Assembly: GCA_039714595.1 (NCBI GenBank)
Contig: JBDLJA010000003.1
Location: 64,312-128,311 of the forward strand
DNA from: Thermodesulfobacteriota bacterium
GTDB lineage: Bacteria; Desulfobacterota; Desulfobulbia; Desulfobulbales; SURF-16
Length of the DNA stretch: 64,000 bases
Reading direction: 5' to 3'
In this document: one piece after another, positions 44,978 through 48,655 of the stretch
How positions within the stretch are numbered: the stretch's first letter is position 1
Layout of the letters: each line of letters starts with the position of its first letter
Notes under the pieces: model-generated
What the model was told of the DNA's origin: nothing
Database searches by the model: none
Seen by the model: only the letters and a program-made list of their open reading frames with translations
Made by a program: the position numbers and the translations under genes

Positions 44978-45236
44978 ATCAGCAGACCTTGAGAATAATT
45001 TTCAAAAGCGGCGGGCAGACGGGAGTAAGGGAGTAGATTAAGGAAAAAAGTCGCGAAATTATACTCGAAAGAGCGGGGATGTCAAACTAACTTCCATCTA
45101 TAGATGGGGAAGCGGTAAGCGCCAGGGGTAAATATTTTCGGGGCCAGGGGCGGCTAGATCATCTTTTTTGCGGACCCATTCGCCCTGTGGCCCTACATCC
45201 CTTTATTTTTAAGGGATTCCTGTTATAGTTTTTTCT

Positions 45237-46916
45237 ATGGGAGAAGAGTGGAGCTATAGTGAGCTGATCGACCTGGAGTATTTCCTGGCCTTGGACCGCG
45301 ATGATGATCCTGCCCACCAGGCCCAGCTGCGCCGGCGGGACCGGGACTTTTTTCTGGCCAATTTCCCTGACCCGGACAGCTCGCCGCCGGGCCGGCCTGT
45401 TCCTACTCGGCCAGAGGCGTCCCCCGCCGGAGACGATCAGAGACACTGCCCCGGGCCGGAGGAGCAAAAAATTCTCAAGGGCTGGCTTGGTTTTCGCGCC
45501 GGTGAGGAGTTACGGGACGGCAACATCCTGCCCGGCCGCCTCTTCGCCGAGGTTTACCGCCTGGCCCTCTTTGCCGCCCTGCTTGCCGGCGGCCTGAGCG
45601 GGATTGTCATGGCCGCGGCCCTCCTCAGCTACAGCGGCATCCGGCCGGTTAATGTCTTTGTCTATCTCTTCTGCTTTGTGATCTTGCAGCTCTTTCTCCT
45701 CCTTCTTCTCCCCCTCTCCCTGGCCCATGCCAACTGGTCAGGCCCTTCTGGGCTGAAGAGGCACCCCTTTCCCCTCTTAAGCGGTCTCTTCGCCTCCCTC
45801 CTGCTGAAACTGTTCAGGCGGGGCTGCCGCAGCTTTAAGGGCTCCTTCTCTGGCAGCCGGCGCCAGAGCCTGGAGGAGATTATCGGCCTGCTCAAGGGGG
45901 CTAACCGGGTGTATGGCCGGCTTTTTATCTGGCCCGCGGTTATCATCGGCCAGCTCTTCGGCCTGATGTTTCAGCTGGGGGTCATCCTGGCCACCCTCTT
46001 TCAGGTCTTGACCCGGGACCTTGCCTTTGGCTGGCAGTCCACCCTGCAACTAAGCGATGCGGCGGTTTTCAGCTTTGTCAGGGGGGTGGCCCTCCCCTGG
46101 TCCTGGCTCTTCGGGCCGGGTAGCGGTTATCCTGATCTTGGCCAGGTCACGGGCAGCAGGATTGTCTTGAAAGACGGGATCGCCGGTCTCCTCACCGCCG
46201 ATCTCTCCGCCTGGTGGCCCTTTCTCTGCCTCACTGTTTTTTTCTACGCCCTTCTGCCCCGTATCCTGCTCCTGGCCGGGAGCAGGTTTTTCGAGCAGGG
46301 CGACCTGCGGGGCCTGCGCTTGAACCATGGCAAGGTGGCATCCCTGCTGCAACGGATGCGCACCCCCCGGCTGGCCACGGCGGGCCGCGGGCCAGGGAGG
46401 GGGAAGGCGGAGAGGCTGGAGCCGGCCGGGCCGGAGCCGCTGCCAGAAGAGGCCGCCCCGCCGGCGGATAGTGGCCCGGCGGCGGCCGGGGTCACGGTGC
46501 TGATCCCCGACGATCTCTTTAAGCAGTGCCGCGGCCCAGCCTATGACCATTTTCTTGAGATTATCACCGGGAGCCTGGAGAAAAATCGCCACCGTTTTGG
46601 GGTTGACCTGGACAGTGACGCCAGGCTCATTGCCCAGCTGCGGGAAGAGGGGGTGTCCGGCCAGCCCGGGGTGGTGATCCTGGCCGAGGCCTGGCTGCCG
46701 CCCATCACCGACACCCTGGACTTCCTGGGCCGGCTGCGGCAGGCCCTGGGGGATGGGGTGGCGCTGCTGGTGGGTCTGGTGGGCAAACCGGAAGAGACGA
46801 TTTTCACACCACCGGCGGCCACGGATCTGGCAATCTGGCGCCGGAGACTGAACAGTCTGGCTGATCCCTGGCTGCGGGTGGAACCGTTCCCGGCCGAAGA
46901 GACGGAGGAAAAGTGA
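45237..46916 (+). CDS. DUF2868-like polytopic membrane protein
   Basis: 559 aa with several TM helices, a Pro/Gly/Arg-rich linker and a C-terminal soluble domain. Stop overlaps the start of the GTPase gene. Confidence 0.6.
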   Translation: MGEEWSYSELIDLEYFLALDRDDDPAHQAQLRRRDRDFFLANFPDPDSSPPGRPVPTRPEASPAGDDQRHCPGPEEQKILKGWLGFRAGEELRDGNILPGRLFAEVYRLALFAALLAGGLSGIVMAAALLSYSGIRPVNVFVYLFCFVILQLFLLLLLPLSLAHANWSGPSGLKRHPFPLLSGLFASLLLKLFRRGCRSFKGSFSGSRRQSLEEIIGLLKGANRVYGRLFIWPAVIIGQLFGLMFQLGVILATLFQVLTRDLAFGWQSTLQLSDAAVFSFVRGVALPWSWLFGPGSGYPDLGQVTGSRIVLKDGIAGLLTADLSAWWPFLCLTVFFYALLPRILLLAGSRFFEQGDLRGLRLNHGKVASLLQRMRTPRLATAGRGPGRGKAERLEPAGPEPLPEEAAPPADSGPAAAGVTVLIPDDLFKQCRGPAYDHFLEIITGSLEKNRHRFGVDLDSDARLIAQLREEGVSGQPGVVILAEAWLPPITDTLDFLGRLRQALGDGVALLVGLVGKPEETIFTPPAATDLAIWRRRLNSLADPWLRVEPFPAEETEEK

Positions 46917-48322
46917 TGGTGCCAGAATTCGCGGTGGTGGGCCACCCCAACGAGGGCAAGTCTTCGGTTCTCTCTACTCTGGCCGAGGATGATTCGGTGC
47001 GGGTCAGTCCCTTGCCTGGCGAGACCGTGGAGTGTCGGCCTTTTCCGGTGGTGATCGACGGGCGGGAGGTGATTCGTTTCACCGATACGCCGGGCTTTCA
47101 AAATCCGCGTAAGGTCCTGCAGATCCTTGAGGGTTATGGGGGGGGGCAACCCTTCGGTCGTCTGCTGGCGGAGCATGGCCACGACCCCGCCCTCCAGGAT
47201 GACTGTGAGCTCCTCGCCCCCCTGGTGGCCGGGGCCGGGATCATCTATGTGGTGGACGGCTCCCGGCCCATCCGTAACGTGGACCGGGCGGAGATGGAGA
47301 TCCTGCGCCTCACCGGCCGGCCGCGGCTGGCGATCATCAACGCCAAGGATGATCGCCACGACTTTTCCCACCAGTGGCGCGACGAGTTCCGGCGCAGCTT
47401 TAATTCGGTGCGCATCTTTAACGCCCACCGGGCCACCTACCGGGAGCGCATTGAGCTGCTCCAGGCCTTAAAACATATCGAGCAGGATTGGCTGGTCCCC
47501 CTGGAGTCGGTGATCGCGGCCTTTGAGGAGGAGTGGCACTATCGCAGCGAACAGGTGGTGGAGATCATCTCCTCCCTGCTCCGTCACTGCCTGGCCTACC
47601 GGCTTGGCGCCACCCCGGAGCCGGGTAGTGATGAGCAGGCCCTGCGGAAAAAATTGGCCGCCAGGTATAACCGTCATATCTCCCAAAAGGAGAAAGAGGC
47701 CCACAGCCAGATCAGGCGTCTCCATAAGCATAATATCTTCCAGCTCAGCCTGCCGCCCGCCTCCATCCTGGAGCATGATCTGTTCAATGAAAGGACCTGG
47801 CAGTTTCTGGGGCTGGACAAGGGGCAACTGGTGGTGGCCGGGGGCTTGAGCGGGGCCGCCATCGGGGCCGGGCTGGACCTTGCCGCGGGCGGGGTCAGCT
47901 TCGGACTCTTTTCCGCCCTGGGCGGCCTGGCCGGGATGGCGGCCACCGGTCTTGGCGGCCGGGAACTGCTGAGGGGACGCAGGGTTCTGGGAATGAGGCT
48001 GGACGGAGAGGAGATCCGGGTGGGGCCCCACGCCAATCCCCAGTTTCTCTTCATCCTCCTGGATCGGGCCCTGCTCTACTACGAACATGTGGTCAACTGG
48101 GCCCATGGCCGGCGGGAGCAGGCGCCTTCCCCCGATGAGAGCGGCCTGGCGGACGGTTATACCAGGCACTGGCCGGCCGGGCGGCGGGAGCTGTGCGCCC
48201 GCTATTTTCGGGAGGTGACTAAGGGCGGGGCGGCGGAACTAAAGACCGATCAGCAGATGCGTGACCTGCTCCGCCAGGAGCTGGCCGCCATATCGAACCA
48301 GGAGTACCGGGGGATAAGATGA
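46913..48322 (+). CDS. GTPase with DUF3482-like C-terminal region and Gly-zipper membrane hairpin
   Basis: 469 aa with G1 GHPNEGKS, G3 DTPG and G4-like NAKD. C-terminal Gly-rich hydrophobic hairpin (GGLSGAAIGAGLDLAAGGVSFGLFSALGGLAGMAATGLGG). Confidence 0.7.
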   Translation: MMVPEFAVVGHPNEGKSSVLSTLAEDDSVRVSPLPGETVECRPFPVVIDGREVIRFTDTPGFQNPRKVLQILEGYGGGQPFGRLLAEHGHDPALQDDCELLAPLVAGAGIIYVVDGSRPIRNVDRAEMEILRLTGRPRLAIINAKDDRHDFSHQWRDEFRRSFNSVRIFNAHRATYRERIELLQALKHIEQDWLVPLESVIAAFEEEWHYRSEQVVEIISSLLRHCLAYRLGATPEPGSDEQALRKKLAARYNRHISQKEKEAHSQIRRLHKHNIFQLSLPPASILEHDLFNERTWQFLGLDKGQLVVAGGLSGAAIGAGLDLAAGGVSFGLFSALGGLAGMAATGLGGRELLRGRRVLGMRLDGEEIRVGPHANPQFLFILLDRALLYYEHVVNWAHGRREQAPSPDESGLADGYTRHWPAGRRELCARYFREVTKGGAAELKTDQQMRDLLRQELAAISNQEYRGIR

Positions 48323-48655
48323 GGAGGCTAGCCTGGCCAGGGGGGGCAAAAAGGGGCGCGAAGCGATCTTTTTGCGTGGACGGACAGGGGAAAATTGGCT
48401 AATAACAATTCTTTCTGGGGGGGGGCTTTGCGCCTTTGCGCTAGCCTTTTAGCGGATCTGCAGTTGGCAAAGTTATTCTCTACAAGGCACCCCTCAAGTT
48501 TCAGCCAGTGAAAGCAGGTAGTAGCTCTGCTGATGCTGGGCCATTCAGGTAATTAATAGAGGCGGCAACTCTCCGAATTGCTTTTGTCTCCGGTTGTGCG
48601 GCAGGCCGGATGAAGATTTGTGCTAATCATAAAAAAAAGATAAGGGTCATAAGGT

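What the first reader, a model, noticed from the sequence alone, without database searches (positions are those of the whole stretch)
45237..48322. Translationally coupled DUF2868-like polytopic membrane protein and GTPase with a Gly-zipper membrane hairpin
Seen in the sequence: the stop of the 559-aa membrane protein overlaps the start of the GTPase (GTGATG at 46913-46918).

The GTPase has an Era/EngA-type G domain (GHPNEGKS, DTPG, NAKD), then a helical region, then two Gly-rich hydrophobic segments (GGLSGAAIGAGLDLAAGGVSFGLFSALGGLAGMAATGLGG).

The partner has about 6-8 TM helices, a Pro/Gly/Arg-rich low-complexity linker (…ATAGRGPGRGKAERLEPAGPEPLPEEAAPPADSGP…) and a C-terminal soluble domain.

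Established knowledge: as far as I recall, DUF2868 and GTPase/DUF3482 genes co-occur as neighbours in many Proteobacteria and have no assigned function.

Inference: a G domain combined with a membrane-inserting hairpin is reminiscent of membrane-remodelling GTPases (bacterial dynamin-like or mitofusin-like). The pair may form a nucleotide-gated membrane complex.
Basis: partly seen in the sequence, partly recalled or inferred. Interest (0 to 1): 0.6.

Follow-up and report, generated by a model that had tools for sequence, protein, structure and literature searches.

The report
Conserved membrane-protein plus GTPase gene pair
Two overlapping genes encode a four-helix inner-membrane protein and a membrane-anchored GTPase that occur together in every genome sampled from two phyla and probably form one GTP-switched membrane machine of unknown job; this copy is an ordinary member of a catalogued, unstudied pair.

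Summary
ORF A (45237-46916, 559 aa) is a DUF2868 protein. ORF B (46913/46916-48322, 469/468 aa) is an MMR_HSR1 GTPase with DUF3482. They overlap at GTGATG.

The pairing is very strongly conserved:
- In 452 sampled genomes of two phyla, 31 carry DUF3482. The same 31 carry DUF2868, always adjacent, on the same strand and in the same order.
- 80 of 80 fetched loci show the pair, and 63 of these allow a 4-nt or 1-nt stop/start overlap.
- No third gene is conserved next to it.

- The partner has four transmembrane helices, not 6-8.
- The pair is not confined to Proteobacteria.
- The G domain is of the potassium-activated Era/EngA/MnmE/FeoB type, with a P-loop Asn and a Phe after DTPG. It is not a dynamin.
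- The guanine-reading Asp/Glu of G4 is kept in only 36 of 139 family representatives.

The Gly-zipper stretch is a fixed 21+22-residue hairpin. It is almost free of charge, has one nearly invariant Asp and has basic flanks.

Neither protein has a solved relative beyond the G domain, and I found no functional study. My best reading is an obligate GTP-switched inner-membrane complex. Its output could be gating or transport, membrane remodelling, or sensing, and this is unresolved.

This scan has already flagged the same pair 72 times in at least 66 other genomes.

The parts
45237..46916 (+). Gene A: DUF2868 inner-membrane protein, 559 aa
   Evidence: ORF. Pfam PF11067 E 4.3e-61, 207.6 bits against a cut-off of 26.8. 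AlphaFold mean pLDDT 82.7, pTM 0.81.
45237..45530 (+). Cytoplasmic N-terminal helical region (aa 1-98) with conserved DLEYF, RDR and WL motifs
   Evidence: D12, R36, W83 and L84 are invariant in 43 sequences that include Myxococcota and Thiodictyon. Helices 7-19, 25-42 and 74-93.
45531..45737 (+). TM1 (aa 99-130) and TM2 (aa 140-167), joined by the short PVNV turn
   Evidence: Hydropathy maxima 2.17 and 2.97. Model helices 99-130 and 140-167. N139 and Q151 are invariant.
45918..46013 (+). TM3 (aa about 228-259) with conserved polar residues Q239 and N246
   Evidence: Hydropathy 2.11. Part of the long helix 206-259. Q239 43/43, N246 42/43, G248 43/43.
46014..46211 (+). Most conserved block: an aromatic-rich loop (aa 260-325), inferred to face the periplasm (D-x-AFGWQ, LPW, GS..L..G)
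   Evidence: D261, A263, F264, W266, P287, P299 and L318 are invariant. The loop has 4 K+R and 8 aromatics, against 11 K+R in the TM2-TM3 loop, which fits the positive-inside rule.
46212..46310 (+). TM4 (aa 326-358), WWPFL...Y...LLPR
   Evidence: Hydropathy 2.19. Helix 326-358. W326, F329, L330, Y337 and R342 are invariant.
46362..46490 (+). Low-complexity Pro/Gly/Ala/Arg linker (aa 376-418), variable in length
   Evidence: pLDDT below 50 at 389-406 and 408-414. Large length variation in alignment A4.
46491..46889 (+). Cytoplasmic C-terminal five-stranded alpha/beta domain (aa 419-551), generic flavodoxin-like
   Evidence: Strands 419-424, 448-454, 478-484, 509-515 and 546-551 alternate with helices. 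Only weak, generic fold matches, E at least 0.028. E484, W486, P489, G516 and W534 are conserved. Not homologous to the G domain (hhalign probability 1.2%).
46904..46918 (+). Coupling junction: GGAGG (46904-46908), GTG 46913, TGA stop 46914-46916, ATG 46916
   Evidence: Sequence. 63 of 80 related loci allow a 4-nt or 1-nt overlap. The same is seen in Anaeromyxobacter oryzae, a myxococcal MAG and Thiodictyon.
46913..48322 (+). Gene B: GTPase with DUF3482, 469 aa from GTG (468 aa from ATG 46916)
   Evidence: ORF. PF11981 E 2.6e-66 and PF01926 E 8.9e-12. AlphaFold mean pLDDT 77.5, pTM 0.76.
46913..47422 (+). G domain (aa 1-170): G1 GHPNEGKS, G2 T38, G3 DTPG-F62, G4 N143-A-K-D146. Three extra helices (aa 65-105) sit after switch II.
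   Evidence: Family-wide counts: N13 135/139, T38 138/139, F62 136/139, N143 137/139, and D/E at N+3 in only 36/139.
47438..47812 (+). Helical stalk (aa 176-300) with two long helices, 191-228 and 241-270
   Evidence: E260 and H273 are conserved. No solved relative by sequence.
47825..47959 (+). Gly-zipper hydrophobic hairpin (aa 305-349), two arms of about 21 and 22 residues around a GG turn, with near-invariant D322
   Evidence: G314 135/139, G318 134, D322 128, G327 124, G337 134, G341 127. The median is one charged residue in 44, where 11.5 are expected. Flanks have net positive charge. Caveats: pLDDT is below 50 and Kyte-Doolittle hydropathy reaches only 1.6.
48014..48298 (+). C-terminal helical region (aa 368-462) with the LLDR...H(A/G)RR motif
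   Evidence: Helices 377-397, 422-437 and 441-462. R385 134/139 and H398 138/139.

Best explanation
The two genes encode the two subunits of one inner-membrane complex, made in matched amounts through translational coupling.

Subunit A (DUF2868) is a four-helix scaffold with both ends in the cytoplasm. It has conserved polar residues inside its helices, a strongly conserved aromatic loop on the periplasmic side, and a cytoplasmic alpha/beta domain on a floppy linker.

Subunit B is a small GTPase of the potassium-activated type, in which a hydrophobic residue replaces the catalytic Gln (the Era/EngA/MnmE/FeoB class). It carries a helical stalk and a Gly-zipper hairpin. I infer that the hairpin inserts beside the partner's helices, giving a six-helix membrane unit.

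Inferred mechanism: GTP and K+ drive G-domain dimerisation, as in MnmE and FeoB-type enzymes. The stalk passes this movement to the hairpin and to the partner's helices. Hydrolysis resets the complex.

Inferred output, my single best guess: FeoB-style gating or energising of passage of a small solute or lipid-linked molecule along the conserved polar residues (N139, Q151, Q239, N246, D261 and R342 in A; D322 in B).

What is shown: the gene pairing, the domain anatomy, the motif type and the conservation. What is inferred: physical contact, dimerisation, membrane insertion of the hairpin and the output.
For: - Strict co-occurrence and fixed order: 19 of 301 Thermodesulfobacteriota genomes and 12 of 151 Myxococcota genomes carry DUF3482 above the cut-off. 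The same genomes carry DUF2868. All are adjacent, on the same strand, with DUF2868 first, and no genome has one gene alone.
- 80 of 80 loci have the pair, and 63 of 80 allow a 4-nt or 1-nt overlap. The pair also overlaps in A. oryzae, a myxococcal MAG and Thiodictyon. No other neighbour is conserved.
- G-domain type: P-loop Asn at K-3 in 135 of 139 representatives and Phe after DTPG in 136 of 139. That Asn coordinates the activating K+ in MnmE-type NTPases (PMC6310460). The best sequence and fold matches are EngA/Der, Era, MnmE, EngB and FeoB G domains.
- FeoB_N gives a sub-threshold hit in the query and is recorded for many homologues.
- Hairpin: fixed arm lengths, one charged residue in 44 where 11.5 are expected, basic flanks and an aromatic belt.
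- Partner: four TM helices by hydropathy and AlphaFold, a positive-inside pattern, invariant polar residues within the helices, and the highest conservation in the loop inferred to face the periplasm.
Against: - No direct evidence of contact, because a complex model could not be run.
- The hairpin has pLDDT below 50 and only borderline hydropathy. DeepTMHMM and CCTOP called no TM helix in the P. aeruginosa orthologue (PMC12864544).
- There is no similarity to any transporter fold or family. FeoB_C and Gate domains are absent. Fold search of the partner found nothing with E below 0.028.
- The G-helical-hairpin-helical order equally fits a mitofusin/atlastin-like layout.
- No substrate clue comes from the neighbourhood, which varies between lineages.
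- Confidence 0.4 refers to the gating/transport output. I would put the generic claim of an obligate GTP-switched membrane complex at about 0.85.
Confidence: 0.4

Rival explanations
1. Mitofusin/atlastin/bacterial-dynamin-like membrane remodelling. The hairpin anchors the GTPase. GTP-dependent G-domain dimerisation in trans or cis tethers, fuses, divides or repairs the inner membrane, and DUF2868 acts as a receptor or regulator.
For: - The domain order matches: G domain, helical bundle, hydrophobic hairpin, C-terminal helices.
- Weak matches to LeoA (E 5.7e-5, G1-G3 only) and LeoBC (E 0.025) in PADLOC.
- IniA and the IRG and GIMAP GTPases appear among the fold hits at E about 3e-4.
- One homologue carries a precomputed Dynamin_N hit (P0281).
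Against: - The G domain is small (about 170 aa) and of Era type.
- The P-loop has Asn, where dynamins have Ser.
- The query has no Dynamin_N match.
- IniA reaches TM-score 0.23 at rmsd about 31 Å.
- A strongly conserved loop on the periplasmic side and polar residues inside the partner's helices are not expected for a purely cytoplasmic-face remodeller.
Confidence: 0.2
2. Trans-membrane sensor with a GTPase output. The conserved periplasmic-side loop of DUF2868 senses an envelope cue. It switches the nucleotide state of the GTPase, with its C-terminal alpha/beta domain acting as GAP, GEF or effector. The Gly-rich stretch is merely a docking or peripheral element.
For: - The strongest conservation in DUF2868 lies in the loop inferred to face the periplasm.
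- The cytoplasmic alpha/beta domain on a flexible linker gives faint receiver-like hits (2j48 E 0.029; 4xlt TMt 0.50).
- TM predictors found no helix in the P. aeruginosa GTPase.
Against: - No downstream effector or regulator gene is conserved nearby.
- The receiver-like similarity is not significant.
- Conservation of the hairpin (fixed length, no charges) is stronger than expected for a simple docking loop.
Confidence: 0.15
3. Membrane-tethered assembly or ribosome-associated GTPase. Like Era, EngA and EngB, the G domain acts on ribosomes or on the biogenesis of a membrane complex, and DUF2868 only localises it.
For: The closest sequence and fold relatives of the G domain are the ribosome-assembly GTPases Der/EngA, Era and EngB. 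The secDF gene lies divergently upstream in this window.
Against: - Scores are far below every NCBIfam equivalog cut-off, for example Der 41 bits against 307.
- There is no KH or other RNA-binding domain.
- The secDF neighbourhood is not conserved.
- The family is patchy: about 6-8% of the genomes sampled in two phyla carry it, so it is not a core function.
Confidence: 0.1

Closest known systems
Pfam DUF2868 (PF11067) + MMR_HSR1/DUF3482 (PF01926 + PF11981) gene pair, named by NCBI 'DUF2868 domain-containing protein' and 'GTPase/DUF3482 domain-containing protein'
   Same: Both proteins score far above the Pfam cut-offs. The gene order, adjacency and overlap are those of the family.
   Different: Nothing distinguishes this copy. 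It is about 55% identical to Desulfobulbaceae homologues, with a best hit of 66%.
FeoB (ferrous iron transporter with an N-terminal K+-activated G domain and helical domain)
   Same: Both have the K+-type P-loop Asn, a hydrophobic residue in place of the catalytic Gln, and a G domain followed by a helical domain coupled to a polytopic membrane part. FeoB_N gives a sub-threshold hit, and NFeoB appears among the fold hits.
   Different: The system here is split into two proteins with only 4+2 membrane helices. There are no FeoB_C or Gate domains. FeoB_N scores 23.9 bits, below the cut-off of 27. No iron-related neighbours were seen.
Dynamin superfamily membrane GTPases with hairpin anchors (mitofusin/Fzo1, atlastin/Sey1, BDLP, IniA, LeoA/LeoBC)
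   Same: The linear layout is the same: G domain, helical bundle, membrane hairpin, C-terminal helices. Activation by dimerisation is also likely.
   Different: The G domain is Era-like and has no dynamin insertions. It has the P-loop Asn rather than Ser and no Dynamin_N hit. Global fold similarity is poor (IniA TM-score 0.23). It also needs a dedicated four-helix partner.
Era/EngA(Der)/EngB/MnmE G domains
   Same: These are the best sequence matches in the PDB (EngA 1mky E 5e-18) and the best fold matches (Era 3iev E 1.8e-5). The G1-G3 signature is shared.
   Different: The match covers the G domain only. There are no KH, MnmE N-terminal or tandem G domains. The scores are far below the equivalog cut-offs. 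G4 is degenerate across the family.
Glycine-zipper two-helix membrane hairpins (my recollection: Kim et al. 2005 on transmembrane glycine zippers; Pfam Gly-zipper families)
   Same: Repeated small-xxx-small spacing (G310-G314-G318-D322-G326, and G337-G341) occurs in two arms of about 22 residues.
   Different: No Pfam Gly-zipper family matched the segment, even at E up to 10. Here the hairpin is embedded in a 469-aa GTPase.

Membership tests
Pfam DUF2868 (PF11067) | HMM score above the gathering cut-off | tested here: met
   207.6 bits against 26.8, E 4.3e-61, profile positions 10-314 of 315
Pfam DUF3482 (PF11981) with MMR_HSR1 (PF01926) | Both HMMs above their gathering cut-offs in one protein | tested here: met
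   DUF3482 224.4 bits against 29.2; MMR_HSR1 45.6 bits against 21.9
DUF2868/DUF3482 two-gene module | Genes adjacent, on the same strand, DUF2868 upstream, and co-occurring in genomes | tested here: met
   Window; 31 of 31 positive genomes among 452; 80 of 80 loci
K+-activated, hydrophobic-substituted TRAFAC GTPases (Era/EngA/MnmE/FeoB class) | Asn at position K-3 of the P-loop (GxxNxGKS) | tested here: met
   N13 is present in the window and in 135 of 139 representatives. Its role is described in PMC6310460.
K+-activated, hydrophobic-substituted TRAFAC GTPases (Era/EngA/MnmE/FeoB class) | Hydrophobic residue in place of the catalytic Gln after DxxG | tested here: met
   F62 in 136 of 139 representatives
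K+-activated, hydrophobic-substituted TRAFAC GTPases (Era/EngA/MnmE/FeoB class) | K+-stimulated GTP hydrolysis and nucleotide-dependent dimerisation | not testable with these tools
   Needs biochemistry
Dynamin superfamily (BDLP, IniA, LeoA, mitofusin, atlastin) | Dynamin-type G domain (Pfam Dynamin_N; P-loop Ser in place of the K+-type Asn) | tested here: not met
   No Dynamin_N hit at E up to 0.01. The P-loop has Asn, whereas dynamins have Ser.
Dynamin superfamily (BDLP, IniA, LeoA, mitofusin, atlastin) | Global fold similarity to a solved dynamin-like protein | tested here: not met
   IniA 6j72 gives E 2.4e-4 but TM-score 0.23 and rmsd 31.5 Å. The top hits are Era and EngB G domains.
Dynamin superfamily (BDLP, IniA, LeoA, mitofusin, atlastin) | GTP-driven membrane fusion, fission or tubulation | not testable with these tools
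   Needs liposome assays
FeoB | FeoB_N above cut-off plus FeoB_C/Gate membrane domains in one polypeptide | tested here: not met
   FeoB_N scores 23.9 bits against a cut-off of 27. No FeoB_C or Gate domain. TIGR00437 scores 17 bits against 316.
Era, Der/EngA, EngB, MnmE, HydF (NCBIfam equivalogs) | Score above the equivalog cut-off | tested here: not met
   The best is Der at 41.3 bits against 306.7. All hits cover only about aa 3-75.
LeoABC-type anti-phage dynamins (PADLOC) | Full-length match to the LeoA or LeoBC models | tested here: not met
   LeoA E 5.7e-5 over aa 7-63 only. LeoBC E 0.025 with no stretch passing.
Pfam glycine-zipper families | HMM match to the hairpin segment | tested here: not met
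   Only DUF3482 matched aa 301-369 at E up to 10

The most novel reading that the evidence does not exclude
The DUF2868/DUF3482 pair is a separate class of GTP-driven inner-membrane machine. It would be a K+-activated Era-type G domain that works through its own Gly-zipper hairpin and a dedicated four-helix partner. It would be mechanistically distinct from both dynamins and FeoB, with relaxed base specificity in most members because the G4 Asp is missing.
Probability: 0.45. Interest if true: 0.7.

Novelty: new member of a known kind. Interest (0 to 1): 0.4.

Why it matters
The pair is a widespread, strictly co-inherited membrane GTPase module with no known job. I saw it in sulfate reducers, cable bacteria, Geobacter relatives, Anaeromyxobacter and a purple sulfur bacterium. 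A paper reports it in Pseudomonas aeruginosa. The GTPase alone was also seen in a planctomycete.

Working out its function would fill a real gap in the catalogue of bacterial GTPases. It would also show whether Era-type G domains can drive membrane events. This window adds no special feature to that question, because it is a typical copy among housekeeping genes.

Tried and rejected
- Gene fusion as evidence of contact. P0184 (984 aa, DUF2868 + GTPase) has an Arg-rich, out-of-frame-looking stretch at aa 400-487, so it is most likely a frameshift artefact. The 928-aa frame in L065 is a read-through from an upstream chorismate synthase gene. Neither is counted.
- DUF2868 C-terminal domain as a degenerate G domain. 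hhalign probability is 1.2%, so this is rejected.
- Horizontal transfer or a mobile element. The pair's GC of 64% lies within the range of neighbouring coding regions. Only one plasmid hit was found, a 485-kb Thiodictyon megaplasmid.
- Anti-phage defence system. PADLOC gives only weak hits confined to the G domain, and the neighbours are housekeeping genes: secDF, rsfS, gpmI.
- A conserved third gene. None was found in 80 loci.
- Solved relatives of DUF3482 or DUF2868 by sequence. None beyond the G domain.
- Literature. Searches by DUF names, Pfam and InterPro accessions found four papers, none functional. A search for an undescribed dynamin-like GTPase found nothing.
- A promoter for the pair. 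None was found by the consensus scan. The only perfect sigma-70 site points to secDF.


Full report
**What is in the window**

Two ORFs lie on the plus strand. One runs 45237-46916 (559 aa) and the other 46913-48322 (469 aa). At 46913-46918 the sequence reads GTGATG. TGA (46914-46916) ends the first gene. GTG 46913 and ATG 46916 are both in frame for the second gene.

A GGAGG sequence at 46904-46908 sits 7 nt before the ATG. The database copy of the protein is 468 aa (P0001). ATG 46916, with a 1-nt overlap, is therefore the likelier start.

NCBIfam gives only weak, N-terminal matches to Der, Era, EngB and MnmE, far below their cut-offs. Each family occurs once in the 2.76-Mb genome.

The neighbours are housekeeping genes: a fused secDF transcribed divergently upstream, then an alpha/beta hydrolase, rsfS and gpmI downstream. 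The pair's GC content (64%) is like that of neighbouring coding DNA.

**Is the pairing more than chance?**

Yes. In an even sample of 301 genomes of the window's phylum, 19 carry DUF3482 above the cut-off. The same 19 carry DUF2868. In every case the two genes are on one contig, on the same strand, with DUF2868 upstream.

I repeated the test in a second phylum, centred on Anaeromyxobacter oryzae. Of 151 genomes, 12 carry DUF3482, the same 12 carry DUF2868, and the arrangement is the same. No genome has one gene without the other. Related genomes are not independent, so I give these as counts rather than a probability.

All 80 loci fetched from species-representative genomes have DUF2868 directly upstream. 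In 63 of them a start codon overlaps the stop by 4 nt or 1 nt. The same overlap is seen in A. oryzae, a myxococcal MAG and the Thiodictyon syntrophicum megaplasmid. In P. aeruginosa the two genes have consecutive IMG gene identifiers (PMC12864544).

No third gene is conserved beside the pair. The family is patchy: the sister genus in the window's own family lacks both genes (G207). It is also not mobile, with a single plasmid hit.

**Anatomy of DUF2868**

Hydropathy and a confident AlphaFold model (pLDDT 82.7, pTM 0.81) agree on four membrane helices: 99-130, 140-167, about 228-259 and 326-358.

Charge counts place the N-terminus, the TM2-TM3 loop (11 K+R) and the C-terminus in the cytoplasm. 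The 66-residue TM3-TM4 loop (4 K+R, 8 aromatic residues) falls on the periplasmic side.

That loop and the helix ends beside it are the best conserved part of the protein. D261, A263, F264, W266, P287, P299, W326, F329 and L330 are invariant in 43 sequences, including myxococcal and gammaproteobacterial ones. Polar residues inside the helices are also conserved: N139, Q151, Q239, N246 and R342.

After a disordered linker of variable length comes a five-stranded alpha/beta domain (419-551). Fold search found only generic, non-significant matches, with the best at E 0.028. PDB sequence search found nothing useful. The domain is not related to the G domain.

**Anatomy of the GTPase**

The model (pLDDT 77.5, pTM 0.76) contains these parts:
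- a G domain (1-170) with three extra helices after switch II
- two long helices (191-228 and 241-270)
- the Gly-rich stretch, which has low confidence (pLDDT below 50 at 310-364)
- three C-terminal helices

I counted motif conservation in 139 representatives clustered at 50% identity:

| Residue or motif | Conserved in |
|---|---|
| G1 Asn (N13) | 135/139 |
| G2 Thr (T38) | 138/139 |
| DTPG followed by Phe (F62) | 136/139 |
| G4 Asn (N143) | 137/139 |
| Acidic residue three positions after N143 | 36/139 |

The window's own NAKD keeps the acidic residue. The P-loop Asn at K-3 is the residue that binds the activating K+ in MnmE and other K+-dependent NTPases, and dynamins have Ser there (PMC6310460). 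With Phe in place of the catalytic Gln, this is an Era/EngA/MnmE/FeoB-type G domain.

The PDB sequence search (EngA 1mky at E 5e-18, G domain only) and the fold search (Era, EngB, EngA, MnmE and NFeoB at E about 2e-5 to 2e-4) say the same. Dynamin-like IniA appears at E 2.4e-4 but with a TM-score of 0.23. IRG and GIMAP proteins appear at a similar level. Nothing matches the whole protein.

**The hairpin**

Residues 305-349 form two arms of 21 and 22 residues around a GG turn. Across the 139 representatives:
- The arm lengths hardly vary.
- The small-xxx-small spacing is kept (G314, G318, G327, G337, G341).
- One Asp (D322) is present in 128 of 139.
- The median number of charged residues in the 44 positions is one, where 11.5 are expected from whole-protein composition.
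- Both flanks carry net positive charge, and an aromatic pair precedes the C-terminal basic residues.

This is what a cytoplasmically inserted helical hairpin looks like. Three caveats apply. Hydropathy is borderline (1.6). AlphaFold is unsure of the region. Published TM predictors called no helix in the P. aeruginosa orthologue. The stretch might therefore be buried against the partner rather than in lipid.

**How it probably works**

Strict co-inheritance, fixed order and translational coupling argue for an obligate complex of matched stoichiometry. The G-domain type argues for activation by K+ and nucleotide-dependent dimerisation.

The stalk and hairpin would carry that movement into a six-helix membrane unit. 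That unit holds conserved polar residues and a conserved face on the periplasmic side. I rate this generic picture at about 0.85.

For the output I lean towards FeoB-like gating or energising of passage across the inner membrane (0.4). Conserved polar residues inside helices and a conserved outer loop are hard to explain for a machine that only reshapes the membrane from inside. The alternatives are mitofusin-like remodelling (0.2), a trans-membrane sensor with a GTPase output (0.15) and a membrane-tethered assembly GTPase (0.1). None is excluded.

**Comparison with what is known, and novelty**

Both families are catalogued in Pfam. The four papers in the library that name them give no function. 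[quoted passage not shown]

The pair fails the membership tests for dynamins, FeoB, the named Era-class equivalogs and the LeoABC defence dynamins.

This scan has flagged the same pair 72 times in at least 66 other genomes. Earlier follow-ups reached similar conclusions. I treated them as leads and re-derived the counts here. The window's copy is an ordinary member.

**What could not be done**

A model of the complex could not be run. Transposon-fitness data could not be looked up because the locus tags of model-organism orthologues could not be obtained with these tools.

Noticed in passing
window 45058-45085 (minus strand): A perfect sigma-70 consensus promoter (TTGACA, 16 nt, TATAAT; 12 of 12 matches) points towards the divergent fused secDF gene. 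No comparable site was found for the DUF2868-GTPase pair.
   Followed up: no
window 47138-47146 and 48417-48425: There are two runs of nine G. One lies inside the GTPase gene and encodes the GGG of EGYGGGQP, in the variable insertion after switch II. The other lies in the 333-nt spacer downstream, and a G7 run sits at 48340-48346.
   Followed up: no
G207 (same family as the window's genome, 99% complete): The sister genus lacks both DUF2868 and DUF3482, while six of six genomes of a neighbouring family have both. The pair is gained or lost as a unit.
   Followed up: partly
L083 3884-7431 (Thiodictyon syntrophicum plasmid pTs485): The pair sits directly downstream of light-harvesting pufBA genes on a 485-kb megaplasmid. 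Its DUF2868 protein is enlarged (703 aa). [quoted passage not shown]
   Followed up: partly
G178:C100:68373-69225: The GTPase homologue is split across two reading frames (68373-68528 and 68533-69225). This is either a frameshift or an assembly error.
   Followed up: no
P0187 (Candidatus Uabimicrobium amorphum): A 34%-identical GTPase/DUF3482 homologue occurs in this phagocytosis-like planctomycete, so the GTPase family reaches outside the proteobacterial lineages. Its neighbourhood was not checked for DUF2868.
   Followed up: no
L065 3206-5992: In one MAG a truncated chorismate synthase frame runs without a stop into the DUF2868 frame, giving a 928-aa ORF. This is probably a frameshift or an assembly artefact rather than a fusion.
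   Followed up: partly
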